Source: Callorhinchus milii
Lineage: Eukaryota
DNA length: 64,000 nt
Direction of reading: 5' to 3'
Assembly (NCBI RefSeq): GCF_018977255.1
Contig: NW_024704742.1
Coordinates: forward strand, 71,736,001-71,800,000
In this document: in pieces, positions 4,691 to 57,058 of the stretch
Layout of the letters: every line of letters begins with the position of its first letter
Position numbering within the stretch: position 1 is the first letter of the stretch
The notes under the pieces: generated by a model
What the model was told of the DNA's origin: nothing
The model's database searches: none
The model's input: only the letters and a program-made list of their open reading frames with translations
Program-made: the position numbers and the translations under genes

Positions 4691-4699
4691 CAATAAATA

Positions 4700-5008: not shown

Positions 5009-5197
5009 TGCAAATTACTCTGTCATCTGCAAATTATTATATAATTATATCATTATTGTGGCTATTTTTTGGGACGTTGCTGTGTGGAAACTGACGACCT
5101 AAAAATATACAGTGATTGCACTTTACAGTAAAGTTCCCACCCCCCCATGACTCAAGATGTAAATTCTTCACAAAATAACGCTGCCAACAGATCAGTG

Positions 5198-5214
5198 AGT
5201 TCAGTCTGAGTTCA
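5198..5214 (+). promoter_or_regulatory. DR5 retinoic acid response element motif
   Basis: AGTTCA gtctg AGTTCA, a perfect RGKTCA-N5-RGKTCA. Confidence 0.55.
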
Positions 5215-7104
5215 TAGTAACATAGGAACAGAAGGCCATTCAGTCCCTCGAGCCTGTTCCGCCATTCATTGAGATCAGGACTGATCTGTACCTCAAGTCC
5301 AATTACTTGCCCGTGCCCCGTATCCCTTGATACTCTGACTTAACAAATATCTATCCACCTCAGTCTTGAAGCTGTGAATGGATCCAACATCCACAGCCTT
5401 CCATCTGGAGACAGCAGGGGGAGCTATTGCTCCACACAAACACGTTCAACATGGAAGGTCGTCTCAAAGCGCTTCACAGAATTGTGCATTGACTGAGTGT
5501 TTTGCGAGTGAACTTAGCAGAGAGTGAGTGACCGAATAATGTCCGCCTGAACAGGCACAGACGGGGCCTCGGTTTAACGGTTCATCCAAAGGACAGCGTC
5601 TCCCCACGGTACTACACTGACGTGTCAGCCTGGACTATGTGATTCCAAGTCCCAGACTTGGGGGCTTGAACCCACAACCTTCTGACTCAGAGGCGAGAGC
5701 GCTACCACTGAGCCAGATTGGCCACACTGGGAGCAGGGATTCTTCCCACTCAAAGCCCTAACAGTAGGGTGGTCTGAGCTGGACAAGCAGCAGGTGAAGC
5801 TTGCTAGGCAGTGCTCTCAATACAAATCGTGCAGTGTTAGCTGGTTAAACTAACACATTTACCACATTTACCCCAACAAACACTCAGGCCCCCAGTGCTT
5901 GGCTCTCACCAACCTATGCTTAATATTCTCTGGAATTAGGTAAGCAGGGTGCGTCAATCCAGGGAGAGAGAATATGCGTTCCAGACACAGGAATTTACAA
6001 TGTGTAGGTGACCTACATATGTGTCATGTAGTCTTAAGATGACACTGCAATGTAGTGCTGGGGAGGTGTATTGTCAGAGGTGCCATCCTTCAGTTAAGAT
6101 GTTAAACCTTTTCAGGTGATTATTAAAGATCCTATGGCACGATTCGAAAAGATAAGGGAGTTTCTCTCTTCCGGTGACTAACCATCCCCCAAATAAAATT
6201 GGTCACTCCTTGCATAGCTGTTTGTGGGACATTGCTGTGTGCATTGTGCTGACGCTTTTGCTTACAAAATATACAGTCCATTTCACATTAAATCCTGTGA
6301 AGTGCTTTGAGACGTCCTTCTGACATAATAAGGCACTATAGCAAATGCAAGGATTATTACTCTGTCTGGTTTGGAGACGCTTAAGCAAGGTGAAACACCC
6401 AGCTAACCACAAACAATTCACATTTATATACAGTGCTTGTTCTGTTTTTCCAAGTACTCTTGACAGCGTTCTGCCACTGTCAAGCGCTCTGGGGCGCTAC
6501 CCTGCATAAGGGGCGCTATCTAAATGCAAGTTGTTGTTGTTTACCAAACTCTCTGCTTCTGTGCCTAAATTCCTCCACTACTACTCATTATGGTTTAATC
6601 ACCATTCGCTCTGTGAATCCACCTCCTGTTCTTTTTCTCTCGTTAAGTGCAACGCAGATACAAGGGCAATATGATTAGAGTAAAGAACTCCAGTGGGGGA
6701 GCGAGCACCCGCATAGACATGATGGGGAGAGAGCAGGGAATGGGATTAGAGTAGAGAGCTGTGGTCGCTGGGAGTCAGGCTCAGTGTGTAAGCAAAGCTA
6801 CACCCTGAATACTTCCATGATCCACCAATTCCCAGATAGAAGTATATGGTTTCTGTCCATCGGCCTTTCAACAGATGCCAATGCCTCAGTGGGAAACAGA
6901 ACCCCTGGTGTGTGGAGCTGTGCTGATCCCCTGGGCCTGTGGCCAGGCTGAGGGGAGGACAAGAAAGCTGCGGTCCCTGGGGGAGGGAGGGGAGAGGGGG
7001 GAGGGAGCCCAAAAGCATTTCTGGGCGATTACTGTCCGGGGCTGTTACACTCCATACCACACCATGCTAGAGTGAAATGTGAACCATGTGTGATACACTT
7101 AGCT

Positions 7105-7280
7105 CCAGAGAGACACAGAGAGGAGAGCTACCCACGGAGAGAGAGAGAGAGAGAGAGAGAAAGAGCTGCCCAGAGAGAGAGAGGAGAGCTGCCCACGGAG
7201 AGAGAGAGAGAGAGGAGAGCTGACCAGAGAGAGAGAGAGAGAGAGAGGTGAGCTGCCCACGGAGAGAGAGAGAGAGAGGA
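7105..7280. repeat. GA-rich minisatellite
   Basis: Repeats of gagctgcccacgg followed by (GA)n. Confidence 0.9.
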
Positions 7281-10200
7281 ACATGGTACCAATTTGCATT
7301 TCACCCAGAAAATACACAATCAATCCACTTTATTCTGTGAAGCGCTTTGAGACGCCCTATAAGCGCTATGCAAGGATTATTATCATTAGGAAAACAAGGG
7401 AAGGCCATTCAGCCCATCAAGCCTGTTCCACTACTTTATTGGATCCAATAATAATAATCTTTATGTTTGATATTGTGTGGTTCCATTCACATCAAACCAC
7501 TTTACAAGGTTTACTGTAAAGTGTGACTTTTTTGTTAGTAAATAAGCCAGTTTGTACATTGCAATGCCCCACAGACATCGTGAAGTGAATGGTCCGTAAA
7601 ATGTCAGAATCGAGCCCACCCTCTGTGACGGTCTCTCGTCGGGATCCTGAGCCAGGTGGGTCCGCAGTATTCCAGGGCACTGCTGATGGCAGCACAGCCC
7701 AGCCTGGCTCATCACCAGGACCTGGAAGGGCAGACCAGTCACTGGGGGTGGGGAATCCTCCCACTCAGCTCCTGTTAACCCTGCAAACCAAAGCCCCTAA
7801 TGGGTAGGGTGGTCCCAGCTGGACAAGCACCGGGAAAGCTTGCCAGACAGTGATATCAATGGCAAGCTATGCGGGTTTAGCTAGTTAGACTCCAGGAATT
7901 ACCAATTTGGGGTCCCTAAGCCTTGGCTCTTGCCAATCTGCTCATTATCATTTCGCCTACAGTCAATTCACTTTACTGTGAAGCGCTTTGAGACATCTCA
8001 ATGACATAATCAGGCGTTATATCAAATGCAAGGCTTATTATTATTAATACTCTCCCGAATTAGGTAAACAGATTGCGTCCCTCCAGGGAGAGAGTGCCAG
8101 ACATGGTCATTTCCATGGTAAGTGGCATTGATGTGTGGAACTCTCAGTCTGTAGACTCCTGATCACAGTGTTGGGTTTCCGTGTGTGTCAGACACCTGGC
8201 TGATCACAGTGATAGGTTTCCATGTATGTCAGACACCCGGTTGATCACAGTGATGGGTTTCCACAAATTTCAGACACCCGGTCGACCAAAAAAAAAATGT
8301 GTAACATGTCTGGTGAGGAGTGAGAAAGAGCAAAACAAAACCCTGGTGGTTTGGGCTCCCAGATGTCAGGATGTATTAGGGCAGGCTGGCTCAGGAACAG
8401 ATTAAAAAGGAAAATTCTTCCCAAATTACAGTGTTTCACTGAAAAAGTAAAGGTTAAAAGCACAAGTGGAGATCCGTGTGGTATATTGCTGATTGCTAAA
8501 ATATGTGGAGATTTGCTTTGACATCAGATATTGTACCAAACGTAAGCCGGTGTGTCTGATGAACAGAGGAAAGTGTTCCCACATGCGCCTGGCGTTAGTA
8601 CATCAAACTCAATCCAGTCTGTAGTTTATACTCTTTCTGCCCCCACCCCCACCAATTCCCTGCGTTTTTTAAAGGGTCTCACACCAACTCAACCCCCCTA
8701 CCCCAAAAACACACACCACCACTTCGTTGGCTCCGTGTGAACTTCTGCAATGAATCCCGTCTGAAAAACTTACCCGAGAATGCCAGGCATTTGATCCCAG
8801 GGGTGGGAGACCCTAAGCATTCTCCTCATTCCTAATCAATGAGGTCTTCTCAGCATAACAATAATAATAAATAATAATCCTTGCATTTGGTCCAGCGCCT
8901 TATCACGTCGTTGAGATGTCTCAAAGCGCTTCACGGGATATACTGTAAAGTGTAGTGACTGTATTTGTGGGTGAACGAGGCAGCCAATTTGGGCACAGCA
9001 ACATCCCACAAACAGTCGTGAACTGAATAACTGATTTTACAACCTCCCGACCTAGAGGCCAGACTGACAGCGAATGTGAAGCACGTGTGCAACGACTAAT
9101 TGCAGTTACACAGCTCCCTTCAGGATAGTGTCTCAGAGTGAGACGCGGGGAGAAGGAGCTGGTAACGTCAGGCTGCTGTTTACTTGCTCTGTTGTGTCGT
9201 CCTTTGTGTTTTTAAGATATTTGAGGCTTACAATGTGCCTACCAATAAATATCCCCTCCAAAGCCCCCCCCGCCCGCTCCGTCTCCATCGCTGATCCCCA
9301 GCTGGGAATAATTAGAAAATGCTTTTTTTGATGAAAATTCCTTTTGAACCAAGTAAACAGTGCTGGTAAACAGACATTGTGAGAAATCCCCCCCAACATG
9401 TTAATGTGTGTGGGGGCGGGGGGGGGGGGCGGGGGAGACTCACATGGAGACAGATGCCAGCACCCATGGGATGGAGTGAGCGGCCTTCTGTTCTGGAACA
9501 TTCCACGGTTTCCTTAAATCCTTTTTACGCTTGTACCAGGCTCATTGGGTATCACACTCCCCTCTGATTCACAAGGTCGGGCTCTACATCAGGCACTCTG
9601 AGCTCACAGTCTAGGCTGACACTCCAGTGTAGTGCTGGGGGCCGAGCAGAGAGAGCACAGCATTGTCAGAGATGCCATATTTTGAGTATGATGATAAACC
9701 GAGCTCCCTGTCTGGCTGCTCAGGTGGATGTCAAAGATCCCATGGTGCTATTGGAAAAGAGAAGGCGGTTTCTCTCTTCTGGTGTCTTGGCCAACAATCC
9801 CCCAGATAAAATGGTGTCACTCAATTCACGACTTTGTGCAACTCTGCTGTGCCCAACTGGCTGCCCCATTGCGCCCACAAAATATACAGTCACTACACTT
9901 TACAGTGTAAACTACATATCTCAACAACGTGATAAGGCGATATATCAAATGCAATTATTTTATTATTTTCTTTCCTTTCTCTTCATTTTTTCTTCCTTCT
10001 CTTTTTCTGCTGAGCTGAGACACAGATGAGTTGCCCTTTGCCCTGCGAGGTGCAGTATAACATCGCATCAATACTGTGTCCATCCCGAGAGCCTGCGGGT
10101 GAAATCTGACCTCTCTTGTTGCTCAGATTACCACAGTGCCTGTCATGGCCAAACCAAGACACTTTTCTTGTGTGCTATTTAACACGTCCATTCTCCTCAG

Positions 10201-11451
10201 TTGCCCAGGATCCTATTTACACCAGACTGACTCCTACTAAGGGACTGCTCCCTGTCCACAGTACTTCAGGGCACTGCTGATGACAGCACAGCCCAGCCTG
10301 GCTCATCAGCAGGGCTGTCAGGGGAGACCAGTCACTGAGGGCAAGGAATCATTCCACTCAGCTCCTGTTAAGCCTGCAAGCCAAAGCCCTAATGTGTAGG
10401 ATGGTCCTAGCTGCATAAGCAGCTGGAAAGCTTGTCAATGGTTTGACTCCAGCAGTTTTACCCTATTCCACACTCTGGAGTCCCCAAGCCTTGGCTCTTG
10501 CATCCTATGCATAATAGTCGAAGTCCCAGGTTCAATTCCTTATGCAAGTTTCCTTACTCCACACGCCTGTTAACCCAGCAGTGAGTAGGAACCCTGGTAT
10601 TAGTCAATTGTAATCCTGTAGCTCAGTGGTTAGAGCACTTGCCTTGCAATTTCAGGCAGGGCGAAACCTTGGGCAAATTTCCTTACTCCACACGCCTAAT
10701 AATAATCCCTCTAAAACAAAACAATAATAAATTAGTCATTTTCAATCCACGGCTGTTTGTGGGACACTGCTGTCTGTGTGCAATTGGCTGCCGCATTTCG
10801 CCCACAAATATACAGTCAATTCACTTTACAGCATATTCTGTGAAGCACTTTGAGACATCGAGAAGGATTATTGTTATTATTAATTGACGGATCACTTTCC
10901 AGGGTAATAATCCCTCAAAAAATGTGGTCACTGAATCCATGACTGTGGGACACTAGTGTATGCAATTGGCTGCCGTGTATCACCCACAAATAAGGTCAAT
11001 CCGCTTTACAGTATATTCTGTTAAGCTCTTTGAAACGTCTCAACAGCGTGATAAGGCACTATATCAAATGCAAGGATTATTATTATTATTATCATCATGC
11101 TCTCTGGAATTAGGTAAGCACGGTGTGTCCCTCAGAGAGAGTGCTTATTCCGATTGCAAGCGACTGTGAGTCCGCAGTGCTATAACGGAGACGGCTAGCG
11201 TCTTAACATTCCCTGATCAGCGCTCGGTCGCTCACTCACTTGCTCTCCCTCCTGGGTCCAGCCTCAGCCTGGGCGTTTTTCCCACACTCTTGGTATCCAG
11301 GGTTCCGGACTTCCTGTTCCCATTGTACTGCTGCCTTTGTTGACCTGAGCTGTTGTTTTGTGAGCGGCCAGGTTGTTATGAGCCCTATTTCCTGGTAAAG
11401 TGCACAGTCAGACGATGGATGGCTTCCTGCAGACCTAGCTCAGTGTGGCCG

Positions 11452-11465
11452 GGGTCAGCAGGTCA
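11452..11465 (+). promoter_or_regulatory. DR2 retinoic acid response element motif
   Basis: GGGTCA gc AGGTCA in a non-repetitive block. Confidence 0.45.
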
Positions 11466-11586
11466 TCTGTCTCCAGACACAAACCACTTTCGTCCACTGG
11501 GGCCCCCTACAGGTCGTCCCCATTATAACGCAACGGGTTTTGGGTGCATGGACTTGGAGCCTGTGTTATACCAGTCAGTACCTCCA

Positions 11587-11958
11587 GGATTCCCTGTAGT
11601 GTAGTGGTTTGCGCGCTTGCCTCACACGCGAGAGGACCTGGGTTCAATTCCCAGGCAGGGCGAAACCTTAGGCAAGTTTCCTTACACCACAAACCTCTGT
11701 TTATATAGCAGTAAGTAGGAACCCGGTTGTTAGTCAATTGGCGGATTGCTTTCCAGGAGTAATAATCCATTAAAAATAATAATAATTTAGTTACTTAATC
11801 CATGACTGTTTGTGGGACACTGCTGTGCACAGTTGGCTGCCACGTTTGACCCACCAAATATACAGTCAATTTACTTTACAGTATATTCCATGAAGCACTT
11901 TGAGACATCTTAACGATGTGATAAGGCACTATATCAAATGCAAGGATTATCATTATTA
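11587..11958 (+). mobile_element. tRNA-derived SINE, long variant
   Basis: A/B boxes plus the internal segment gcagtaagtaggaacccggttgttagtc; (ATT)n end. Confidence 0.85.
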
Positions 11959-13689
11959 TAATCCTCACTCTGGTTGCAGCATTTGCAACCCCCAAAACCG
12001 TTCAATTTGTTGTGCAGATCATTGACCGTGACTGTATTTGTAGATGAATGCAGAGTAGTGTCCCACAAACAGCCATGACATTGGCTGCCACGTTTATGTA
12101 TACAATACATAGTCCCAGCATTTTACAGCAATAATAATAATAATAATACTTGCATTTGATGTAGTTCCTAATCACGATGTCTCAAAGCGCTTCACAGAAC
12201 ATATCATAAAGTGGATTGACTGTGTATTTTGTAAACGCGGCAGCCAATTGCGCACAGCAGTGTCCCGCAAACAGTCATGGATTGAGTGACCAAATCATTT
12301 TAAGTATTTTGAGGGATTATTACCCTCAGAAAGCAATCTGCCAATCAACTAACAACCGTGTTCCTACTTACTGCTGGGTAAACAGAGGCGTGTGGAGTAA
12401 GGAATCTTGCCTAAGATTTTGCCCTGCCCTGGAATCCAACCCGGGTCTTCTCGCTCTAACCACGCCATTACGGAACTCCAGAATCCTGTAAAGCACTTTG
12501 AGAGATCTCAGAGATGTGATCAAGTGCTGTGTGCGATGCGAGGATTGTTATCAGTTATTACAGTTGTGACAATTGATCGGCACCAAACCTGCAGTAATGC
12601 AGTTCTCACTTGACAGTTTCACAATGAACCATTGATCCGTTCATTGCTCGCTCCCTTTAAGAGCTGCTGTAATTTCATCCAGGCTGAAGTGGTGGTGGGG
12701 GGAACACTGGACATTACGGGGTGGGGGCAAGAGCAGCTTTCTCTCTCCACAGATGAGAGGCTCCAGCACTCGATCTACAGCTAATGGCCTCTCCAGGGGC
12801 AGGGGGACGGTTAGTGAAGCCATCTGCTGACTCATAATCTACCTGGTCTCAGCATTGAAACCATTTTGACTCAAAAAGAATCAATATCGCGCCTTTCACC
12901 TTATCGAGACAGCTCAAAGTGCTTCACAGGATTTTACTGTGAAGGTAGAATAACTGATTTGTAGGCAAACTTTGAGCTCACGATCCAGGCTGATGCTCCA
13001 GTGCAGTGTCGGGGGGATAGAGTGCCACATTGTCAGAGACACCATCCTTCAGATGAGATGTTAACTTCACTCCCGTTGAGGTGAATGTTAACGATCCCAT
13101 GGCACCGTTGGAAAAGAGAAGGGAATTTCTCTCTCCTGGTGTCCTGGCCGACATTCCCCCAGATAAAATGGCTGATTCACTTCACGATTCTTTGTGGGAC
13201 ATTTCTGTGTGAAAATTGGCTGCCTACACTATTTCAGTGAGCAAGTGGTAAATCTATAGAACAGGCTCCCTAGGAGACGGTAGAAGCAGAAAGTGTTGAT
13301 TCTTTCAAATTAGACAAATTTCTTTTAGGAAATAATATTTTGGGTACAGTATATGAGGAATGTGAGACATGACATATAGTAAGCGTATGGTTTGGAAGAA
13401 CCAGGCAACTTTGGATCTAAGGTTCCCAAAGGTTTCCACTGTGCTGTAGTCTAATCCATACAGAATTAATTGTTACCAACATCTCCATTATCAGCAAGTG
13501 ATTACCAGGATGGCAGAAGGCGGACGAGGTGGACCTTGGTGTTTTTTTGCCTAGCAATTCCTATGTTCCTAGGCATAAAAACAGTCACTACACTAGGCAG
13601 CTTTTCTCACAGTGTGACGCTCTCTCCCCCAGGTACTGCACTTGAGCGTCAGCCTGGACTGTGAGCTCATAGTCCCCGAGTTATAATAT

Positions 13690-14372
13690 AATAATAAGAC
13701 TTGCATTTGATACAGCGCCTTATCACTTCTTCGAGGAGTCTCAAAGTGCTTCATAGAATATATTGCAAAGTGGATTGACTATATTTTGCGGTCAAAATGT
13801 AGCAGCCAATTGAACACCGCAGTCAGTTGTAGATTGAATTGACCAAATTATATATATTTTTTAAGGATTATTAGCCCCGGAAAAGTAATTTGCCAGTCGA
13901 CCAATAACTGGGTTCCTACTTACTGCTAGGAGTCTTGTAGCTCAGTGGTTAGAGCACTCGCCTCGCAAGCGAGAGACCTGGACTCGATTCCCAGCAGGGC
14001 GAAACCTTGGGCAGATTTTCTTACTCCACGTGCCTGATAATAATCCCTCGGAAGAAAAAAAANCAATAATAAAAAATTGGTCACTCAATCCACGACTGTT
14101 TGTGGGACGCTGCTGTGCGCAATTGGCTGCCGCGTTTCCCCCACAAATATACAGTCAATTCACTTTACAGTATATTCTGTGAAGCGCTTTTTTAAGGATT
14201 CGTCTAGAAAAGGTGAAAAGTGCCATATCAAATGCAAGGCTAATTTTATTATTATACAGGTAAACAGAGGCGTGTGGAATCAGGAAACTTGCCTAAGGTT
14301 TCACCCTGCCCGGGAATCGAACCCTGGTCCTCTCACTTGCGAGTGCTCTAACTTCTAAACTACAGGACTCCA
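13690..14372. mobile_element. SINE (minus) with a second SINE (plus, about 13929-14254) nested inside
   Basis: The host sequence tactgctagg|...|aggtaaacagaggcgtgtgg resumes after the inserted copy. Confidence 0.8.
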
Positions 14373-14591
14373 CTTGAGGAGCTGAGGACTTGAACTAATA
14401 ACCTGCTGACCCCGAGGTGAAGGTGTCACTGAACGCGTTCCCACAGTCAGGAGGGCACGGCCGGGGAAAGGGAAACATAAAGTTAGCTGCTTTCACAACA
14501 GCAGGAAGCAATAGTAGGCGAGTGGATTTGTGTGTGTGCAGCTCTGTGTAATCAATGTAACATTACACAGAGAGAGAGCGAGATAGCGGGA

Positions 14592-14681
14592 AGGTCACCC
14601 TGAGGTAAAGACACTTCACAGCTTCCGAGGGGGTCACCAACAGGTCAGCGCGGCTCACACACTTAGTGCACGCACAGGTCA
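14592..14681 (+). promoter_or_regulatory. Cluster of three DR5 RARE-like motifs
   Basis: AGGTCA ccctg AGGTAA (14592-14608), perfect GGGTCA ccaac AGGTCA (14631-14647), AGTGCA cgcac AGGTCA (14665-14681), all in unique sequence. Confidence 0.65.
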
Positions 14682-14775
14682 AACCGCACATTGCTCCTAC
14701 ATGAACATATCACTCGCTGCCTAATCACCCTGGAGGCCAAATCATAAAATTCCGGGGATTAGTTGAACAAATTGC

Positions 14776-15032
14776 TGGAGCTCTCTTGTCTAAGGCCATT
14801 CCCTGCTCTCCCCATCGTGTCTGTGCTGGTGTTCGCTCCCCCACTGGAGCTCTCTACTCTCATCCCATTCCCTGCTCTCTCTTCATCGTGTCTGTGCTGG
14901 TGCTCGCTCCCCCACTGGAGCTCTCTACTCTCATCCCATTCCCTGCTCTCCCCATCGTGTCTGTGCTGGTGCTCGCTCCCCCACTGGAGCTCTCTACTCT
15001 CATCCCATTCCCTGCTCTCTCTTCATCGTGTC
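14776..15032 (+). repeat. Tandem 69-71-bp unit (about 3.5 copies); also dispersed elsewhere
   Basis: Unit cccattccctgctctccccatcgtgtctgtgctggtgctcgctcccccactggagctctctactctcat. Confidence 0.9.
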
Positions 15033-15502
15033 TTGTTTCATTGGGGAATTGGTGAACAGTAACCTTGTTTCAGTGGGTAGAAAGCTCAACTCTGGGTCAG
15101 AAGGTTGTGGGTTCAAGGCCCACATCAGGGACTTTGAGCTCACAGTCCAGGCTGATGCTCCAGTGCAGTGCTGGGGGAGCACCGCATTGTCAGAGGTGCC
15201 GTCCTTCGGATCAAACGTTAAGCCGAGCTCCCGTCTGTGCCTCTCAGGTGAACATTAAGGATTCTGCGATGCTAATGGGAAAAGAGAAGGCAGTTTCTCT
15301 CTGCCAGTGCCCTGGCCAGCAATAGCCGGATAAATCACTTGTGGCTGCATGCAGGACCTTGCTACGTGCAAAATGGCTGCCGTGTTTGCCTGTAAAGATT
15401 TGATGACAGTTCCTTAAAGTGCTGGAAGTCGTTCTGACGTCCAAGGCAAGCATTATTTATCAGGGAATATTTTGCTGATGTAGGCGTCTGGCCGGATGCC
15501 AG

Positions 15503-15519
15503 TCACCTCAGGCTGAACT
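15503..15519 (-). promoter_or_regulatory. Near-consensus DR5 RARE motif
   Basis: Minus strand AGTTCA gcctg AGGTGA. Confidence 0.4.
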
Positions 15520-17588
15520 CTGGGGAGCCCTGAGACGCAAGTGACTTTTATCTTTTAACTAAAACCTGTTTACAGGGAGGAAGAAAAGCCGGCGTATTGT
15601 TAGGCTGGAGGGAATTCTTGGCACCAAATCTATTCATTACACACAACGCCCACAAGGAGGGAGGCAGAGATTACAGTGTCACAGTCTGGGCTGTGAACTC
15701 AGTCCGTGGTCAATGGGCACATCATTAAGGAAAGCAGGAGAGAGCAGGGAATGGGATGACAGTAGAGAGTTCCAGTGGAGGAGTGAGCACCAGCACAGAC
15801 ACAATGGGGAGAGAGCAGGGAATGGGATTACTACAACAACAAACAAAATTACATTTGTAAAACACCTTTAATGTCGGGAGGACATCCCAAAGTGCTGGAC
15901 AGACAGAGTTTCGGACGCGAGCTGGGGATCCAGGAGGGTAGAGGGGAGGGTGGGAAGGCGGTTGATCGAAGAAGAGGGTCTTGAGATGGGTCTTGAAGGT
16001 GGCAAGAGAAGGGGCGAGGTGGAGGGACTGCGGGATGGAGTTCCAGAGGGTGGGGGTCAGAGTGGGGGAAGGCCTACCCGCCAATAGTGGGGCGAGCAAG
16101 GCGGGGGACATGAAGCAGGCTGAGTGGAGGGAGCGAGCAGGATGGTGGGGGTTAAGATGTCGCAGAGGTAGGTGAGCAAGACTGGAGGGCTCTGAAGGTG
16201 AGGACCAGGATCTTGAACTGTATCCTCTGTGCTTAAATCCAGATCATAATGCCAGGTTTGGGTTAGGGTTTGGGGCATCCCTTCATTTTATTCCTTGTGA
16301 TACTTAAAGAAAGATACATACAGTACTATATAATTCACAGGATTTACTGTAAAGTAAGTTGTTAAGCACTCCGAGACAATACCCCACGTGAAGGGCACTA
16401 CATTAATGCAAGTTGACAGTGCTTTCAATGACAAACTATGTGGTTTCAGCTGGTGAGACTCCAGCAGTTACCCCAATGCACACTCTGGGGTCCCCAAGCC
16501 TTGGCTCTTGCCAACCTGGGCCTAATACTCCCCGGAATTAGGTAAACAGGATGCGTCCCTCCAGGGAGAGAGTGTGTATTCCATTCCAACAATCTTTCTC
16601 TGGGATTTCCAAGTGTAGGTGGATTCTGTTTAGGTTTGGGTGTATTCCTGTACCTCAGTGGGAGAGGAGGGGAGGGGGAGAAGAACACTCGCCTCTCAAG
16701 TGAAAGACCTGGGTTCAATTCCCAGCAGGGCAAAACCTTGGGCAAGTTTCCTTACTTCACAACTGATAATAATCCCTCAAGAAGAAAAAACAATAATAAT
16801 TTAGTCACTCATCCACGACTGTTTATGGGATACTGCTGTGTGCAATTGGCTGCCGCGTTTCACCCACAAAATATATAGTCAATTCACTTTACAGTCTATT
16901 CTGTGAAGCGCTTTGAGACGTCTAGAAGACGTGAAAAGTGCTATATCAAATGCAAGGATTATTATATTTCATCTTATAAAAATAATAATAATCCTTGCAT
17001 TTGATATAGGGCCTCATTATGTTGTTTAGATGTCTCAGAGCGCTTCATAGAATATACTGTAAAGTGGAGTAATTGCATATTTTGTAGGCGATACATGGCA
17101 ACCAATTGCGCACAGTAGTGTCCCAAAGGTGTCCCTTCTTAAGCATGTCGATAGGTTTCCAGATGTGTCAGACACCCAGCTGACCAAACAAAAGAGCATG
17201 TTAAAGTCTAGTCTCTGTGCGTATCATTGGAAAACCGCGGCAGCCAATTTATAGGCAGCAATGTCCCACAAACAGTCACGGAGTGAGTGACCAATATTAG
17301 CTGGGGGATTGTTGGCCAGGAAAACAGGAGAGAGAAACTCCCTGCTCTTTTCCAACAGCACCGCAGGGTCTTTAACATCCATTTGAACAGGTACAGGCAG
17401 AGGAGATCGGTTTAATGTCTCGGCCCAAGGATCTCCCCTCCCGGCAACACAGCTGAAGCACTCCGAGATGCTATCCTGCATGAAGTGCTCTGTGGAAATA
17501 CAAGTTATTGTGAACTCTTAAGACTCTGATACAGGGTTTTAGCCCACAAACATTCTGACTCTGATCTCTCCTATTCCCATGTTCACAG

Positions 17589-17701
17589 CTTCTCGATCTG
17601 TTCATCAAGTGGGACTGGTCCACCTACTTTGCTGACTATGGGCAGCCAACCTGCAAGTACCTGCGTGTGAACCCAGCCACTGCCCTCATCCTGCTTGAGA
17701 A
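17589..17701 (+). CDS. EXOC6B: EXOC6B penultimate constitutive coding exon (113 nt)
   Basis: ttcacag|CTTCTCGAT...CTTGAGAA|gtaagt. Translates LLDLFIKWDWSTYFADYGQPTCKYLRVNPATALILLE(K), matching the Sec15/EXOC6B C-terminal region. Not in the ORF track. Confidence 0.95.
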
Positions 17702-18668
17702 GTAAGTCATCTCCTGTTAGCCCCGCAAGCCAAAACCCTAACAGGAAGGGTAGTCCGAGCTGGACATGCAGCGGGAAGCTTGTCAGACAGATATTGCACT
17801 ATTAGCTGGTTAAACTCCAGCAGTAACGCCCAACATCCCCTAAACCTTGGCTTTCACCAATCTGCGGCTAACACTCTCCCAGGTTACGTGAGCAGGGTGT
17901 GTCCCTGTAGGTCTGTGTGTTACTCCTCACTGGACTTCCCAACTCTTCCCTCCACAATCTGCAGATTATTCAGAACACTGCAGCTCGTGTCCTCTCCCGC
18001 ACCAGGCTCTGGGAACCTATCACCCCAGTTTTTGCCCGGCTTCACTGGCTCTCTATTTCTCAGAGAATCGAGTACAAAACCCTCGTTCTTACCTTCAAGG
18101 CCCTCCATGGTCTTGTCCCCCTAACTCCTACCTCATAACCCCATCTCAGCCTGTCCACCGGCCTGATTCAGGTCCCCCGCACTTCCCGTCCCACCATTGG
18201 TGGACGGGCATTCAGCATCTCTGCCCCCACACTCTGGAACTCTATCCCACAATCCCTCTGCCTCACCCCCTCGCTTGCCTCCTTCAAGGCATGCCTGAGA
18301 CTTTCCTCTTGGTCCGTGCCTTCGGCCACCCTCCCATCCCCACCCCCCTGCCCTCTCCTCTAACCCCAACTCTCAGCTCGGGTCTAAAACTCCTGATTGT
18401 CCAGTGCCCTGGACAATCCGACCTGACAGGCGCTATACAAGTGTAATTTGTTGTTGTTATGCTCACTGGTATTGTGTGGGTCTGTGTATCAGACTCCTGT
18501 AAAGTGAGGTCTGTATTTAACACTATTTCACACTGTGGTACATTCCAGGTGTGTATAGTACTGCATATAACATTCCAGTAGTGTATATACTGTATATATA
18601 ACACTGCAGTATATTAATCCTCCTCACACTAACCTATGTTCTCTCTTTTATTCCTGCCGCGTGTCAAG

Positions 18669-18680
18669 GATATCTAGAGC
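18669..18680 (+). CDS. EXOC6B: Candidate 12-nt alternative microexon of EXOC6B (inserts ISRA)
   Basis: CACTAAC branch point (18627-18633), pyrimidine tract, TGC at 18655-18657, caag|GATATCTAGAGC|gtaagt. Phase 2/2, reading K-I-S-R-A-M with no stop. Confidence 0.8.
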
Positions 18681-19002
18681 GTAAGTACAGCCCCTACCTT
18701 CCCGTAGGAAATTGATCATAAAGTCATAGGGGTGGGGAGAAAATGGTGTGTGATGTGCTAATTCTCACAAGGATAAAAGATCTCTACTCTAATCCCATTC
18801 TCTGCTCTCTCCCCATCGTGTCTGTGCTGGTGCTCGCTCCCCCACTGGAGCTCTCTACTCTAATCCCATTCCTCGCTCTCCCTACACCCTCTTCCTCTAT
18901 ACTCTTTCAAGTATCCGGTTCCTTTCAATATGGTAAAGGGTCGGAGCCTGAATAAATCCTTGAACCTTTATGGCCGTCCTGACCATTTCTCTCTTCCCTC
19001 AG

Positions 19003-19135
19003 GATGAAGGACACGAGCCGAAAGAACAATGTCTTTGCCCAGTTCCGCAGGAACGAGCGGGACAAGCAGAAACTGATCGACACTGTAGCGAAGCAACTGC
19101 GGAGTCTCATCAACAGCAACAGCACGGCCCAATGA
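19003..19135 (+). CDS. EXOC6B: EXOC6B last coding exon
   Basis: cttccctcag|G ATG AAG GAC...; (K)MKDTSRKNNVFAQFRRNERDKQKLIDTVAKQLRSLINSNSTAQ* with TGA at 19133-19135. Phase matches the upstream exon. Confidence 0.95.
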
Positions 19136-22100
19136 ACTGCTTGTTCCTTCTCCCCTCCTTTACACACACCGTCCCTCTCAACCTGCCCCCCTTCCCCCTT
19201 CACACACACCCACTGCCCTCTCCCCAACTTTCACACACACACGCTGCCCTCCCTCCCTCTCTCCCTCCCGCTCCTCACCCCCTGCTCCCCCACTCCCCCT
19301 TCTCATGCTCGTCTCCCTTCACACTCCACTCTCTCTCCTCACCTCCCCCCTCTCCTTCTCTCCCCCTCCCCTCCCTTCCTCTCCGCCTCCCCTCCTCCCC
19401 TCCTCTCCCCACACCCTCCTCTCCCCCTCCACTCTTCTCGCCCTCCCCTCCTCTCCCCACCTCCTCTCCCCCTCCCCTCCGTCTCCTCTTCCCCCTGTTA
19501 ATGGCCAATGTATTGGCCAGCCGTGCCATGTGCTGCCGGAGTGCCGGGTAGTCCTGCTCAGTGAGGAATGGAGACAAAGGGACACAGTGTGAAGTGCTGA
19601 CGGCCACACTTCCAATCACATTTGTTTACAAATGCCCCCCTCCCCCCCTCGGGTGCTATACCGGGGGCGTAACAAGGGGACTTGGGCTCCATTGCTGCTC
19701 TCTCTGTGAGTTCTGCCAATGGACTCTCTACATAAGGGACCGAGAGAAAAGTGAGGATGGATGGATGGGGGGTGGTGGAGGGAGGAAAAGGCACTACTTG
19801 TATCTGAACGTCCCCCTTTTTAAGTATTGGTTTCTCCTGGGAAGGGGCTGGGTAGAGGTTAGGGGTCAAATTGTGGAGCAGCCATCTTGAATTCCTGGCC
19901 TAAATGGACCACAGTGGCCTTTTCTGTGTCCGTGTATATTACTCCCAGCCCCCCCATGGGTGCACTGAAATGAAAGGGTTAGCTGTGTTTTTCTTGGCTG
20001 CTACAGACTCTCGCAATATTCAGGAACACAACTAACCCTGGCTATCCAACCCCTCCCTCTGCCCCAAACCATGGACATTTGTGGAATCCTGTAGCTTATT
20101 GCTCCCTCGCTTGCCTCCTTCAAGACCCATCTCAAGACCCTCTTCTTTGACCATGCTTTCGAACTCCCTGGTTCCCCATCCTGCCCTCCACCCTCCCCGA
20201 TCCCGACCCCCAGTTTGGGTCCGAAACACTGACTGTTCAGTGCCTTGGGACGTCCTCCTGACATGAAAGGCGCTTTACAAATGTAATTTTGTTGTTAGTT
20301 CGATTCCTGGGTGGGGCGAAACGTTAGGCAAGTTTCCTAACTCCATGTTCCTGTATTTACCTAGATTTGAGTAGGAACTCGGTTGTTAGTCGATTGACGG
20401 ATCGCTTTCTGGGGGTAATAATCCCTCAAAAGAAAATATCGGGTCACTCAATCTCTGACTATTTGTGGGACACCCCTGTGCTTAATTGGCTGCCACGTTT
20501 CGTCCACAAAATACAGTCAATCCACTTTACAGTGTATTCTGTGAAGCGCTTTGAGACATTTCAACCACGTGATAAGTCGCTATATCAAATGCAAGGATTA
20601 TGATTATTATTTTTTGACCTCCCTCTCTCCCCTCCACCCCAACACCATAGTGAGAGTGTGGGTCATCTCAGACCCATCCCAGTCTCGTTCCCCTCAGTCT
20701 TGTTCCCCTTTTAACTGTCTGACAGAACACTAAAGACTAAAGTCTCACGGCCACTGAACGCTGCCCAGTGTTTCCCTGAGGGGAGACCAGCACTGAGTCT
20801 CAGGGGGGTGGGGGCAAGTTACTCAAAGCTGCTATGTATCTCCCCGGTTGGGTGGGGGTGGGTGGGGAGAGTAGATTGACGGAACAGTTTCCAAAAGGGA
20901 GTCTCATCCTTTTTTTAAAAAAAAGTTGTATTCACAGACGAATTAGGTTTTACCCTCACATCACTGCAGGCACATCAGAGGAACATCCATCCTCCTGAGC
21001 TGGCAGGTTCTGCTGCCTCTTGGCTCATTCACCGCACAGGACCCTGAGACCGAGGTTTAAGTCACTCAAAGCTTGGACGTGTTCAACTGGTTCCAGTGCC
21101 GGAATCTCAACCTCTTATGCTATGGGGGAAAGCTAGACATTTCAGAGAAACCATCTCGAGACAGTCCAGAGACAGTCAGTGACACAGAGCACTGCCTGGG
21201 AGGAGAGACTGAACCCGACAGCGAGGCAACTGGAGGGACACCAGTAGAGACACCGTAACATGTGCATTAACCTACAATTACAATCAAAGCTGTTATCCTC
21301 TACAATAACTTGGTTTCCAGCGTCGCTTCCAAGACACAATTGAATTTGGAGCCCTGGACGTGCAAGCGGGATATAACCCTCAGGAGGAGTAGCGGTTCAG
21401 AAGGAACAACCAACCACCCGTCTTGTCCGATGTCCAGGTCAGCTGAGGTTTGGAGAGATGTAGACCCCCCCACCCTCCACACACACTGACCCCCCGATCC
21501 TGAAGAATTGGGTTTCTGACTCCCCCAGAGTGCGATCGGTGTAACTGGGCTACTTGGACCCAGACCATTGTGAGACATGTCGTATGGAGTGAGCCCCTTG
21601 GAGGAGGGAAGTGAGAAAGAAAAAGGGACGAGGAGATTCCTAGGGGAGGGGGGATTTCCGGGTCGGAAATCTCAAGATGATCCTCGAAATCCTGGCCAGG
21701 AACACCAGGAACTAGTATTTTGTAAAAAAGGGAAGAGCCAATGACACATGAATGGTATGTGTTCAGAGACCTGCCACTTCAACCTGTCACACCACTGGGA
21801 TTCACATTTAAAGCAACACAGAACTGAGGAAAACCCGCCAATCCTGACCACATTACGTTCGCTCCTTTCAGACATAGGGAAAATCAGCTTCAAATTTACA
21901 TGTTCGCTGTCAAGTGTAGTGACTGATTTAAAAGCGGATGTGCTGACCATTTAATAATAATCCTTGCATTTGGTATAGCATCTTATCAGATTGGAAAAGG
22001 ACATCTCACAGGATTCACTGTGAAACGCAGTGACTGTGTTTGTAGGCAAACCAGCAGCAGAATTGTGCACAGCAGTGTCCCCAAAAAGTCTTTTATTTGG

Positions 22101-22985
22101 GGGATTGTTGGCCAAGCCTCAGGAAGAGAGAAACTCCCTTCCCTAGTGCTATGGGATTTTTAATGGCCTCCTGAACAAGCAGACAGGACCTCAGTTTAAT
22201 GTCTCATCCGAAGACTGGCACCTCCGACAAGGCACCACATCCCCAGGACTGCATTGGAGTGTCAGCTTAGATGATGTGATTCCAAGTTCCAACCTGGGGC
22301 TTGAACCCACAACCTTCTGACTCAGAGGCAAGAGCGCTACCTACTGAGCCAGAGGCGCTATCCTTTGGATGAGCAGTGAAACTGAGCTCCCCTTCTGTGC
22401 CCTGTTCAGGTGGATTTTAAAAATCCCACAGCTTTGTTCAAAGAGAAGGCAGTTTCTTTCTCCCAGTGTCATGGCCAACAATACCCCAGATAAAATGGCT
22501 GTTTGTGGGGCATTGCTGTGCGCAAATTGGCTTCTGCGTTCATTTACAAAACACAACAACAAATTACATTTGTATAGCATCTTTCACGTCGGGAGGACGT
22601 CCCAAGACACTGGACAGTCAAGGATTTGCACCTGAGCTGGGGTTGGGAAAGGGAGGCATAGTTTCAACCTTCTTGAGACGGCCTTGAAGGAGGTAAGGGA
22701 GGGGGATGAGACAAAGACACCAGAAAACACTCACTTTGCAGTGAATCCTGTGAAGCCCTTAAAGGCTTCCTCCTGATGTGCCAGGCACTGCATCAAATAC
22801 AAGGGTTACAAGGGTTTATTCTAATGAGGCTGAATGTGGCCTGAAGTGGAATTTTGACGCTGGGTACGAAGACTTGCGTTTGGCTGGGTCACTGTTACTG
22901 TAAAATAAGCTGCCTGGAGCTTGGTTCATTGTATAACTATAACTGACTCTTACAAAATAAATATATTAACCCTTTTTGAACAGAT
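19136..22985 (+). other. EXOC6B: Probable EXOC6B 3' UTR, with candidate poly(A) signal AATAAA at 22956-22961
   Basis: Follows the stop codon. Unique-sequence blocks interrupted by SINE/L2 pieces; AATAAA followed by T-rich sequence. The 3' end is inferred only. Confidence 0.45.
19146..19495. repeat. C/T-rich low-complexity tract just after the EXOC6B stop codon
   Basis: Nearly pure polypyrimidine (CCT/CCCCT) runs. Confidence 0.9.
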
Positions 22986-23494
22986 CTTGTCTTCTTCCTT
23001 CCCGCAACCCCCACCAGGTACAGGGGCTTGTTAAAATCAGAATCCTACAGCACAGAAGGAGGCTATTCAACCCATCTTGCCTGTGCCTGTGCCAGTTCTT
23101 TGAAAGAGCTACCAACTAGTCCCACTCTCCCGCTTTTACCGCATAGCGTTGCAATTGTTTATCCTTTTTAAGTACCTATCCAATTCCCTTTCAAAAGCTA
23201 TTGTAAATCGTTCAATAATTATTTTTAAGAAATGGCTTTTTTAACACTAAGAAACAATGCTCTTTTTTGATTAGTTTGCATCCAATTAATTCAAAACTCT
23301 GGCACCTCCTATTTTCACCCCACCAAACTCTGCATCCCCATCACCCCAGTCCTTGCAAGCTCCACTGGCTCCCTATTGGAGAACGGAATGATTTCATAAT
23401 CCTCACACTCACCTCACACTCGCATACAAATCACTTTATGCCCTGTCACCTCCCTACCTCTTTAACCTGCTTACTCCCCATTCCACAGGTCTAC

Positions 23495-23940
23495 AGTTCT
23501 CAAGGGCACTGCAGATGACAGCTCAGCCCAGCCTGGATCTTCGGCAGGACTTGGGAATGGCAGACCAGTCACTGGAGGCAAGGAATCCTTCCACTCGGCT
23601 CCTGTTAACCCTGCAAGCCAAAGCCCTAAGGGGCAGGGTGATCCTAGGTGGACAAGCCAAACAGTGCTCTAAATGGCAAGCCATGTGGTTTTAGATGGTT
23701 AGACTCCAGCAGTTACCCCAACGCACACTCTGGGGTCCCCAATCCTTGTCTCTTGCCAACCTGTACCTGATACCCTCTGGAATTAGGTAAACAGGATGTG
23801 TCCCTCCAGGGAGAGTGCATTCCATTACAATAATCTATCTCTGGGATTTCCATGTGTAGGTGGGATACATGGAATTCTCAGCTTGGTTTGGATACTCTTA
23901 AACATGGTGATGGGTTTCCACATGTCAGACAGCCGGCTGG
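23495..23940 (+). repeat. Unclassified interspersed repeat, most complete copy
   Basis: Shared with about 5730-5990, 7668-8290, 10262-10515, 16425-16640, 17715-17905 and 53790-53900. Confidence 0.75.
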
Positions 23941-24913
23941 TGGGAGCTTGGTTTAACGTCTCATCTGAAGGATGAAACGTCCAACAATCCAGCTTCGGCC
24001 CAGCACTGCCCTGGAGCATCAATCTTGACTGAGTTTAAAGTCTCCGAAGTGATCCTATGACTTTCTGACCGAAAGGCCAGATCATAAGAGATCGGGCAGG
24101 GATGGTGCTTACAGTGGAGTCCTATAGTTTAATGGTTAGACGCTGGCGAAACCATAGGCAAGTTTCCTTACTCCACACGCCTCTATTTACCGAGCAGTAA
24201 GTAGAAACCCAGTTGTTAGTCGATTGGTTGATCGCTTTCCAGGGTCGGGGGGGAATAATCTTCAAAACAAATTGTTTTTACGTTATATTCTGTGAAGCGC
24301 TTTGAGACGTCTGAATGATGTGATAAGGTGCAACATCAAATGCAAGGATTAGTATTATTATTACATGACCAGTTGGTACAGTATTTGGGAGATCTCACAG
24401 TTTGTGTGACCAACACTGAGCACAAGTATACAGCAGCCAAGAAAAACAGAGTCAGAGTAAATTAGGCTTCAGTGAGCTGGGATTTAGGTGACAACCTCTG
24501 TAATGAGCCGTTAATCTACCTGGAATTCGCCAGTGATTAGCGAGGCTCCCAGACACGGTTGTTTAAGCAAAGGGTCACCGGCAGGTCAGAGCAGAGGTGA
24601 CGTTGGGTCACCTGCGCGTGGCTCAGACGCTAGCACTCTCGGTTCTGGGTCAGGAGGTCATGGGCTCAAGCCCCACAACGGGCACTTTGACCTGGCAGTC
24701 TCCGCGCTCTCTCCAGCGCAGTAATGGGGGCAGACCGCATTGTTAGAGACTTTTGGATGAGACAATGGCAACAACAACAAATTACATTTACACAGTGGTT
24801 TTTTGCATTGGGAGGACGTTCCAAGGTCCTGGACAGTCAGGGATTTACACCCGAGCTAGGGGTTGAGATCAGGAGGGATGGTGCGCCACGAAGGTAGTCA
24901 TAGAAGGGTGACC
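23609..24913 (+). repeat. Left arm of a 1.3-kb near-identical inverted duplication
   Basis: Reverse complement of 29413-30714; the ORF track also shows identical peptides at 24533-24724(+) and 29601-29792(-). Confidence 0.95.
24572..24660 (+). promoter_or_regulatory. DR5 + DR4-like + DR2 nuclear receptor motif cluster (duplicated, inverted, at about 29665-29753)
   Basis: GGGTCA ccggc AGGTCA (24572-24588), AGGTGA cgtt GGGTCA (24595-24610), GGGTCA gg AGGTCA (24647-24660). Confidence 0.6.
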
Positions 24914-29412: not shown

Positions 29413-30714
29413 GGTCACCCTTCTATGACTACCTTCGTGGCGCACCATCCCTCCTGATCTCAACCCCTAGCTCGGGTGTAAATCCCTGACTGTCCAGGAC
29501 CTTGGAACGTCCTCCCAATGCAAAAACCACTGTGTAAATGTAATTTGTTGTTGTTGCCATTGTCTCATCCAAAAGTCTCTAACAATGCGGTCTGCCCCCA
29601 TTACTGCGCTGGAGAGAGCGCGGAGACTGCCAGGTCAAAGTGCCCGTTGTGGGGCTTGAGCCCATGACCTCCTGACCCAGAACCGAGAGTGCTAGCGTCT
29701 GAGCCACGCGCAGGTGACCCAACGTCACCTCTGCTCTGACCTGCCGGTGACCCTTTGCTTAAACAACCGTGTCTGGGAGCCTCGCTAATCACTGGCGAAT
29801 TCCAGGTAGATTAACGGCTCATTACAGAGGTTGTCACCTAAATCCCAGCTCACTGAAGCCTAATTTACTCTGACTCTGTTTTTCTTGGCTGCTGTATACT
29901 TGTGCTCAGTGTTGGTCACACAAACTGTGAGATCTCCCAAATACTGTACCAACTGGTCATGTAATAATAATACTAATCCTTGCATTTGATGTTGCACCTT
30001 ATCACATCATTCAGACGTCTCAAAGCGCTTCACAGAATATAACGTAAAAACAATTTGTTTTGAAGATTATTCCCCCCCGACCCTGGAAAGCGATCAACCA
30101 ATCGACTAACAACTGGGTTTCTACTTACTGCTCGGTAAATAGAGGCGTGTGGAGTAAGGAAACTTGCCTATGGTTTCGCCAGCGTCTAACCATTAAACTA
30201 TAGGACTCCACTGTAAGCACCATCCCTGCCCGATCTCTTGTGATCTGGCCTTTCGGTCAGAAAGTCATAGGATCACATCGGAGACTTTAAACTCAGTCAA
30301 GATTGATGCTCCAGGGCAGTGCTGGGCCGAAGCTGGATTGTTGGACGTTTCATCCTTCAGATGAGACGTTAAACCAAGCTCCCACCAGCCGGCTGTCTGA
30401 CATGTGGAAACCCATCCCATGCTTTAAGAGTATCCAAACCAAGCTGAGAATTCCATGTATCCCACCTACCATGGAAATCCCAGAGATAGATTATTGAATG
30501 GAATGCACTCTCCCTGGAGGGACACATCCTGTTTACCTAATTCCAGAGGGTATCAGGCACAGGTTGGCAAGAGACAAGGATTGGGGACCCCAGAGTGTGC
30601 GTTGGGGTAACTGCTGGAGTCTAACCATCTAAAACCACATGGCTTGCCATTTAGAGCACTGTTTGGCTTGTCCACCTAGGATCACCCTGCCCCTTAGGGC
30701 TTTGGCTTGCAGGG
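29413..30714 (-). repeat. Right arm of the inverted duplication, ending at the assembly gap
   Basis: Reverse complement of 23609-24913, with a few mismatches/indels near the gap end. Confidence 0.95.
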
Positions 30715-56806: not shown

Positions 56807-56960
56807 TTTCCCAATGATATTCCCAACGTATATCTCCCATTCCCAGTGGCATTATGTGCCATTCCCAATGATATCATTACATGCCATTCCTGAAGGCACT
56901 CCCCACATTATATCCCATTCCCAGTATATCCCGGTCCCGGTCCCGGGGAGCTATCTGTAC

Positions 56961-57058
56961 CTGAGGGTGGGCCCGATGCAGGCCGTGTCAGTGCTCTCGA
57001 TTTCCCGCAGGATCCGCTCGTGCTCGGCCGCCGCCTCCAGACTCCCGGCCTCCGCCAT
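56961..57058 (-). CDS. EXOC6B: Exocyst complex component 6B (Sec15b), first coding exon
   Basis: Translates MAEAGSLEAAAEHERILREIESTDTACIGPTL(R), matching the recalled vertebrate EXOC6B N-terminus. Kozak context acaATGG, phase-2 donor AG|gtacag, inside a CpG-rich segment. Confidence 0.95.

What the first reader, a model, noticed from the sequence alone, without database searches (positions are those of the whole stretch)
5198..24660. Dense array of DR5/DR2 retinoic-acid response elements across the EXOC6B 3' region, a candidate long-range CYP26B1 RA-feedback enhancer landscape
Seen: perfect DR5 at 5198, 14631 and 24572; perfect DR2 at 11452 and 24647; one-mismatch DR5 at 14592, 14665 and 15503. 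By simple arithmetic, a perfect RGKTCA-N5-RGKTCA has about 1e-6 chance per position, so about 0.05 are expected in 25 kb on two strands versus 3 seen. I noticed none by eye right of the gap. Established: RAR/RXR bind DR5/DR2; CYP26B1 is an RA-inducible RA-degrading P450 lying just downstream of EXOC6B in human. Inference: these sites are CYP26B1 enhancers hosted in a bystander gene, possibly of gnathostome age.
Basis: partly seen in the sequence, partly recalled or inferred. Interest (0 to 1): 0.75.

Follow-up and report, generated by a model that had tools for sequence, protein, structure and literature searches.

The report
Retinoic-acid response elements inside chimaera EXOC6B
In a chimaera (cartilaginous fish), retinoic-acid receptor motifs cluster in and just after the end of the gene EXOC6B, where zebrafish and human also show receptor binding, so they probably switch on the neighbouring retinoic-acid-degrading gene CYP26B1, though that link is not shown here.

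Summary
All 8 listed motifs are at the stated coordinates, and the DR5 excess is real: 12.6 kb of non-repetitive sequence left of the gap holds 3 perfect DR5 (0.03 expected) and 6 with at most one mismatch (0.84 expected); 0 of 300 simulations reach either. The host is holocephalan EXOC6B; six sites lie in its penultimate intron, two about 5.5 kb past the stop. That intron carries RAR peaks in zebrafish and human, where CYP26B1 is RA-induced and EXOC6B barely responds. Corrections: it is two clusters plus three single sites, not a dense array; the DR2 at 24647 derives from a tRNA-headed SINE; two perfect DR2 do lie right of the gap; the scaffold is misoriented near the gap; CYP26B1 is not in the window. 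Sequence-level conservation could not be tested (swamped by repeats), and the zebrafish peaks are absent from that study's conserved-element table. Verdict: probable RAR feedback enhancers for CYP26B1, a new member of a known kind, function inferred.

The parts
5198..5214 (+). Perfect DR5, isolated, in a 224-bp non-repetitive island between repeats; also readable as a short 11-bp-period duplication, so the weakest DR5
   Evidence: a same-species contig covers 5100-5262 with 0 differences (table 8, run X15)
11452..11465 (+). Perfect DR2 in a non-repetitive island (11160-11586)
14390..14774 (.). Cluster A: non-repetitive island in EXOC6B penultimate intron, 6 perfect half-sites; best enhancer candidate
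14391..14412 (-).
14592..14608 (+). DR5, one mismatch (cluster A, first of three same-strand DR5)
14631..14647 (+). Perfect DR5 (cluster A, second; 39 bp after the first)
14665..14681 (+). DR5, one mismatch (cluster A, third; 34 bp after the second)
15503..15519 (-). DR5, one mismatch, in non-repetitive island 15387-15736
17586..17701 (+). EXOC6B penultimate coding exon (exon 21 of 22 by the human and zebrafish numbering)
   Evidence: tblastn 100% to a Callorhinchus EXOC6B-like protein, 85-92% to shark, coelacanth and caecilian EXOC6B
18669..18680 (+). 12-nt in-frame EXOC6B microexon (AG..GT)
   Evidence: equivalent 4-residue inserts in amphibian and bird isoforms
19003..19135 (+). EXOC6B last coding exon with stop codon
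24572..24588 (+). Perfect DR5 in non-repetitive island 24383-24618 (cluster B), about 5.4 kb past the EXOC6B stop; further perfect half-site at 24605
24619..24760 (+). Degenerate tRNA-headed SINE copy (about 29% from the consensus of 8 other window copies) that hosts the DR2
24647..24660 (+). Perfect DR2 derived from the SINE head (consensus is 3 substitutions away); 58 bp from the DR5
29413..30714 (-). Inverted duplicate of 23609-24913 abutting the 25-N gap; its DR5 and DR2 are not independent; probable assembly artefact
56960..57058 (-). EXOC6B first coding exon, on the opposite strand to the last exons: scaffold misoriented somewhere between

Best explanation
The unique islands at 14390-14774 and 24383-24660 (and probably some of the single sites) are RAR/RXR-bound enhancers that sit in the penultimate intron and 3' flank of the bystander gene EXOC6B and act on the next gene downstream, CYP26B1. 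RAR/RXR heterodimers occupy tandem DR5 (and DR2) sites; retinoic acid switches them from co-repressor to co-activator recruitment; the enhancers contact the CYP26B1 promoter and raise RA-degrading enzyme, closing a negative feedback loop. Several sites give a steep, redundant response. Shown here: the motifs, their excess over chance, their position in EXOC6B. Shown in other species (published tables): RAR occupancy and RA-opened chromatin in the same intron, and RA induction of CYP26B1 but not EXOC6B. Inferred: binding in this animal, looping, the target gene, and shared descent with the fish and human peaks.
For: DR5-specific excess in non-repetitive DNA, 0 of 300 simulations, top class among 93 spacing/orientation classes. 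Three same-strand DR5 within 90 bp, like the two DR5 37 bp apart at mouse Dhrs3 (PMC7259794 Table 2). Zebrafish RARaa ChIP: 5 of the 11 peaks assigned to cyp26b1 are in exoc6b intron 20 of 21; 8 consecutive peaks (3982-3989) fall in 22 kb there; of 27 RA-opened ATAC peaks assigned to cyp26b1, 6 are in intron 20, 1 on exon 21 and 2 between exoc6b and cyp26b1. cyp26b1 log2FC 6.1 and 5.8 with RA; exoc6b has 0 rows in that RA-regulated table. Human RARgamma CUT&RUN (knock-out subtracted): 2 peaks in EXOC6B intron 20; CYP26B1 log2FC 3.6 at 6 h (0.26 in knock-out), EXOC6B 0.14 at 48 h (columns read from the header). EXOC6B ends about 30 kb before CYP26B1 on the same strand in both tables; both genes are also named as neighbours of lamprey EmxA.
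Against: CYP26B1 is not in the window and the scaffold is misoriented near the gap, so linkage here is assumed. No sequence-level conservation was demonstrated; zebrafish peaks 3980-3999 have 0 entries in that study's table of 116 RAR sites in conserved non-coding elements. One of two DR2 is SINE-derived and perfect DR2 are as frequent right of the gap (2 vs 2). The human data also show peaks downstream of CYP26B1 and in EXOC6B intron 8, so the region is not the only RAR-bound stretch. One paper states that RA control of CYP26B1 seems indirect (PMC5247814). Chondrichthyans have two CYP26B-type genes, so the target's identity needs a map. The P values concern one window chosen after the fact.
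Confidence: 0.68

Rival explanations
1. The sites are real nuclear-receptor elements but serve another receptor or gene: NR2F/COUP-TF, NR4A-RXR or Rev-erb (known from the literature, recalled, to read DR5 or DR2), or RAR acting on EXOC6B itself or another gene of the domain.
For: Half-site consensus is shared across receptors (established knowledge). A mouse RARE on chr6 near this locus was assigned to Zfp638 rather than Cyp26b1 (PMC7259794). No contact data seen.
Against: The excess is DR5-specific. RAR itself binds the orthologous intron. EXOC6B is hardly RA-responsive while CYP26B1 is.
Confidence: 0.12
2. Functional but young: lineage-specific RAREs that arose by turnover (SINE heads, short duplications) in a region under long-term selection for RA input; same logic as in fish and human but no shared ancestry of the individual sites. 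This is compatible with the best explanation on mechanism and rivals it only on age.
For: DR2 24647 comes from a SINE whose consensus is a proto-DR2; DR1 26787 and DR10 15094 are also repeat-derived; zebrafish peaks are not in the conserved-element table.
Against: All 6 listed DR5 lie outside repeats detectable in the window. Holocephalan genomes evolve slowly and often keep elements teleosts lost (recalled).
Confidence: 0.3
3. Chance plus repeats plus selection of an interesting window: no function.
For: 60% of the window is repetitive; the scan reads very many windows, so a P of 1e-4 will be met somewhere; DR2 counts are equal on both sides of the gap; 5198 may be a small duplication.
Against: The excess survives repeat masking; three DR5 within 100 bp arose in 0 of 300 simulations; the location coincides with independently mapped RAR peaks in two other species, which chance does not predict.
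Confidence: 0.12

Closest known systems
Cyp26a1 and Dhrs3 feedback RAREs (vertebrate RA negative-feedback enhancers)
   Same: Several DR5 acting together near an RA-lowering enzyme gene; closely spaced DR5 pair at mouse Dhrs3 (37 bp apart); cooperative RAREs upstream of Cyp26a1 (PMC7151129).
   Different: Those are validated and, for Cyp26a1, within about 2 kb of the promoter; these are untested, tens of kb from the presumed target and inside another gene.
RAR peaks in zebrafish exoc6b intron 20 (PMC8608873, supplements 4, 5, 8) and human EXOC6B intron 20 (PMC12774775, supplement 1)
   Same: Same gene, same intron, same downstream RA-induced neighbour.
   Different: They are rows in supplementary tables, with no sequence given; the main-text passages I saw do not mention exoc6b (0 occurrences). 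Site-by-site orthology with the chimaera motifs is untested.
skap1 intron-4 RARE serving hoxb (PMC8608873)
   Same: RARE hosted in an intron of a bystander gene, acting on a neighbour.
   Different: That element is alignable fish to human and reporter-validated.
Amphioxus CYP26 cluster RAREs (PMC5247814)
   Same: Many DR5 and few DR2 around CYP26 genes; 12 of 13 DR5 bound in EMSA.
   Different: Located within the CYP26 cluster, not in a neighbouring gene; conservation across three species was shown.
Alu-derived DR2 RAREs (PMC1785376, abstract)
   Same: A SINE carrying a near-consensus DR2 that mutates to consensus, as at 24647.
   Different: Alu needs one CpG deamination and gives about 100,000 sites; this tRNA-headed SINE needs 3 changes, and 1 of 9 window copies is perfect.

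Membership tests
Functional RARE enhancer (RAR/RXR DR5/DR2) | Direct repeat of RGKTCA with 5- or 2-bp spacer, at most one mismatch | tested here: met
Functional RARE enhancer (RAR/RXR DR5/DR2) | Excess over local background, specific to RAR spacings | tested here: met
   met for DR5; DR2 weak after masking (1 left, 2 right)
Functional RARE enhancer (RAR/RXR DR5/DR2) | Cross-species conservation of half-sites and spacer | tested here: inconclusive
   swamped by repeats (40 of 1615 substitution rows shown, none informative for the sites), 80 found no homologue among 118 loci; one search lists no zebrafish peak of this locus in conserved elements
Functional RARE enhancer (RAR/RXR DR5/DR2) | RAR/RXR binding to these sequences | not testable with these tools
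   only positional support from other species
Functional RARE enhancer (RAR/RXR DR5/DR2) | RA-dependent enhancer activity lost on half-site mutation | not testable with these tools
   needs reporter or deletion
CYP26B1 long-range enhancer in a bystander gene | Host gene is EXOC6B (not paralogue EXOC6) | tested here: met
   top hit 100% to EXOC6B-like; most named rows among the best 120 of 1142 say 6B; SPR exon in the window
CYP26B1 long-range enhancer in a bystander gene | CYP26B1 downstream in this genome | not testable with these tools
   no genome held; no CYP26 exon noticed in the window's ORFs (no dedicated CYP26 homology search was run); linkage holds in zebrafish and human tables
CYP26B1 long-range enhancer in a bystander gene | Physical contact with, and requirement for, CYP26B1 expression | not testable with these tools
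   HiChIP supplement of PMC11040003 could not be read
SINE-derived DR2 (Alu-DR2 type) | Motif lies within a SINE copy whose consensus is a near-DR2 | tested here: met
   24647 only
DeuSINE superfamily (for the host SINE) | Deu-domain central region | not tested
   resemblance recalled from memory; no consensus available from a tool; passages of PMC4824008 gave no sequence

The most novel reading that the evidence does not exclude
The 3' end of EXOC6B is a jawed-vertebrate-old RAR enhancer landscape for CYP26B1: clusters A and B are orthologous to the RAR-bound elements in human and fish intron 20, they are the missing direct RAREs of CYP26B1, they explain why EXOC6B and CYP26B1 stay linked, and rearrangements inside EXOC6B could act through CYP26B1. 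In chimaeras the landscape was also extended by co-option of a SINE head as a DR2 beside an older DR5 (about 2% chance of a perfect DR2 among 9 copies under neutral decay).
Probability: 0.35. Interest if true: 0.65.

Novelty: new member of a known kind. Interest (0 to 1): 0.45.

Why it matters
CYP26B1 sets local retinoic-acid levels in limb, skull, skeleton and gonad, yet a 2020 review says no consensus RARE was reported in its promoter and predicted DR5 sites were unvalidated (PMC7151129), and a 2017 paper calls its RA control apparently indirect. Compact, motif-rich candidates in a slowly evolving cartilaginous fish, in the intron where fish and human RAR peaks lie, give specific 300-400 bp fragments to test. 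A positive result would make the feedback direct and old, and would bear on how EXOC6B deletions or breakpoints are interpreted. The class of element (clustered DR5 near a CYP26 gene; RARE in a bystander intron) is well known, and RAR binding in this intron is already present in public supplementary tables, which caps the surprise.

Tried and rejected
Cross-species conservation by laying contigs of 4 of 24 listed runs (X15 same species; X1, X6, X9 small-share relatives) on 5100-25050 at 85% likeness: output dominated by repeats; 40 of 1615 substitution rows and 32 of about 340,000 pieces shown; relatives' single contigs do align in some unique stretches (6777-7092, 8381-8589) but nothing shown bears on the motifs; absence of rows is not evidence. 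Small word shares not interpreted. Literature search for six exact motif strings: 1 paper, a barley study, irrelevant. Searches gave no listing whose title or abstract start describes EXOC6B-hosted CYP26B1 RAREs or chondrichthyan RAREs here; the library lacks most subscription papers, and Lalevee 2011, which predicts DR5 for Cyp26b1, was not held, so prior description cannot be excluded. Supplements of PMC11040003 and PMC3091300 unreadable. The mouse RARE assigned to Zfp638 matches site 15503 at 14 of 17 bases; rejected as an orthologue because 12 positions are consensus-constrained and, by recalled coordinates, it lies in a more 5' Exoc6b intron. DR1 at 26787, DR10 at 15094 and three further one-mismatch DR5 (3361, 5579, 15083) rejected as repeat-derived. 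Sites at 29665 and 29737 dropped before counting as duplicates. Rfam on 1-30714 gave only 4 tRNA-like hits, which sit in the SINE copies. Earlier scan findings: none returned (one search had no matching word).
Full report
Observation. All 8 listed motifs are present at the given coordinates. Over the whole window there are 4 perfect DR5 and 5 perfect DR2 against 0.27 each in dinucleotide shuffles, 0 of 100 shuffles reaching either count. One of each (29737, 29665) lies in an inverted copy of 23609-24913 at 29413-30714, 99.4% identical with 3 mismatches and 5 single-base gaps, abutting the 25-N gap; these two were dropped before further counts. In bases 1-29412, 3 perfect DR5 stand against about 0.09 expected from half-site density (P about 1e-4), and 0 of 400 Markov simulations at each of three orders reached 3. 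Among DR0-30, IR0-30 and ER0-30, DR5 is the top class; DR2, DR10 and DR28 have 2 each. After masking repeats by self-comparison (60% of the window), 12,586 bp remain left of the gap, with 3 perfect DR5 (0.027 expected) and 6 at up to one mismatch (0.84 expected); 0 of 300 simulations reached either figure or put three such sites within 100 bp. So the DR5 signal is strong and the DR2 signal is weak. These P values are for a window picked after the fact.

Anatomy. The sites form two clusters, each with 6 perfect half-sites in 300 bp, the highest in the window, plus three single sites. Cluster A (14390-14774) is a repeat-free island with three same-strand DR5 spaced 39 and 34 bp apart and a minus-strand triple half-site at 14391-14412. 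Cluster B has a perfect DR5 (24572) and another half-site in unique DNA, then a perfect DR2 (24647). That DR2 lies inside a tRNA-headed SINE copy. The consensus of the 8 other window copies is a near-DR2 three changes from perfect; those copies carry 2 to 4 mismatches, this one none. Neutral decay gives about 0.25% per copy, about 2% over 9 copies: suggestive of co-option beside the DR5, not proof. The DR1 at 26787, the DR10 at 15094 and three other one-mismatch DR5 are inside repeats.

Gene context. Exons at 17586-17701 and 19003-19135 (+) match a Callorhinchus milii EXOC6B-like protein at 100% and shark, coelacanth and caecilian EXOC6B at 85-95%, so this is a holocephalan EXOC6B. No earlier exon lies in 1-17585, so six sites are in the penultimate intron (intron 20 of 21 by human and zebrafish numbering) and cluster B is about 5.4 kb past the stop. 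EXOC6B exon 1 is on the minus strand at 57058-56960, with SPR exons beyond it. First and last exons on opposite strands, the inverted duplicate, and a junction at 24913 where only the second copy's continuation keeps a repeat collinear (3 of 16 hits span it versus 0 of 25) point to a misoriented piece (24914-30714) and a misjoin at the gap. 'Left versus right of the gap' therefore compares the gene's 3' end with its first intron. CYP26B1 was not seen in the window and no genome is held.

Evidence from other species. In zebrafish RARaa ChIP-seq (PMC8608873; I saw main-text passages and searched supplements 1-9, then 4, 5, 6, 8 singly), 5 of 11 peaks assigned to cyp26b1 are in exoc6b intron 20, and 8 consecutive peaks fall within 22 kb there. 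Of 27 RA-opened ATAC peaks assigned to cyp26b1, 6 are in intron 20, 1 on exon 21 and 2 between the genes. cyp26b1 rises by log2 6.1 and 5.8; exoc6b is absent from that RA-regulated table. In human squamous carcinoma cells (PMC12774775; passages and supplements), knock-out-subtracted RARgamma CUT&RUN has 2 peaks in EXOC6B intron 20, 1 in intron 8 and 2 downstream of CYP26B1; CYP26B1 rises log2 3.6 in 6 h and 0.26 in the knock-out, EXOC6B 0.14 at 48 h (columns read from the header). In both tables CYP26B1 begins about 30 kb after EXOC6B on the same strand. Both genes are named among the neighbours of lamprey EmxA (PMC4464114, one passage). Against deep sequence conservation: none of zebrafish peaks 3980-3999 appears among 116 RAR sites in conserved elements. 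My own conservation tests failed to inform.

Mechanism. Most likely RAR/RXR heterodimers sit on the tandem DR5, RA converts them to activators, and the enhancers reach over the end of EXOC6B to the CYP26B1 promoter, giving RA-induced RA destruction (confidence about 0.68). Motifs, excess and position are shown; receptor occupancy of the orthologous intron and the response of the two genes are published data from other species; binding here, looping, target and site orthology are inferred. Rivals: other receptors or targets (0.12), chance and repeats (0.12), and, on age only, functional but lineage-specific sites (0.3).

Comparison with what is known. It works like the Cyp26a1 and Dhrs3 feedback RAREs, the amphioxus CYP26 RAREs and the bystander-hosted skap1 RARE; the SINE-borne DR2 parallels Alu-DR2 (abstract). 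Membership as functional RAREs is met on motif and enrichment, inconclusive on conservation, untestable here on binding and activity. A 2020 review (passages) says consensus RAREs had not been reported in the Cyp26b1 promoter and that in silico DR5 were unvalidated; a 2017 paper (passages) calls the control apparently indirect and notes two CYP26B genes in chondrichthyans. Searches returned no listing that describes this landscape, but the key in silico paper (Lalevee 2011) was not held and two supplements were unreadable, so it may be partly in print. PMC11040003, PMC11177320, PMC13291787, PMC8950952, PMC13598204, PMC3769385 and PMC4824008 were seen as passages only and added nothing on this locus; PMC7259794 was seen as passages, section 11 and a supplement search.

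Verdict. A real, DR5-specific signal at a biologically sensible place; a new member of a known kind of element, with RAR binding in the same intron already in public tables. Interest 0.45. If the clusters prove orthologous to the human peaks and required for CYP26B1 induction (probability about 0.35), it would deserve about 0.65.

Noticed in passing
window 18669-18680 (+): 12-nt EXOC6B microexon with AG/GT ends and a TGC just upstream; adds ISRA in frame; amphibian and bird isoforms carry a 4-residue insert at the same place. The layout resembles neural microexons (recalled).
   Followed up: partly
window 23609-30739: Inverted 1.3-kb duplicate ending at the 25-N gap, with 24914-29412 apparently flipped; the join at 24913 uses a short match between two different repeats. 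Probably assembly, possibly a real inversion.
   Followed up: partly
window 56960-57058 (-) versus 17586-19135 (+): First and last EXOC6B exons on opposite strands with exons 2-20 absent: scaffold misjoin; the database protein is a 145-aa fragment.
   Followed up: partly
window 60937-61626 (-): SPR exons 2 and 3; exon 3 has a one-base frameshift near 61020, likely an assembly indel. SPR reads towards the EXOC6B promoter, whereas in human I recall the two genes as divergent.
   Followed up: partly
window 28180-28480: Non-repetitive stretch rich in TAAT/ATTA motifs inside the flipped piece; looks like a developmental enhancer by eye.
   Followed up: no
window 32882-32895 and 63037-63050 (-): Two perfect DR2 right of the gap; the first is in a unique island of EXOC6B intron 1, the second in a 1-kb stretch (62246-63226) that looks like a mobile-element end by eye.
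   Followed up: partly
tRNA-headed SINE copies at about 5706, 15060, 22341, 24612, 25933, 28481, 36476, 44742, 56397: The SINE head carries three half-site-like hexamers at 2-bp spacing, one perfect, so the family seeds near-DR2 and DR10 motifs genome-wide.
   Followed up: partly
window 31851-32826 and 41196-42166: Second inverted pair, 96% identical over 981 bp, inside LINE sequence with an RT fragment nearby; two young LINE copies or another gap-fill duplicate.
   Followed up: no
window 39070-40950: About 1.9 kb of TG/TC microsatellite that dilutes motif density right of the gap.
   Followed up: no
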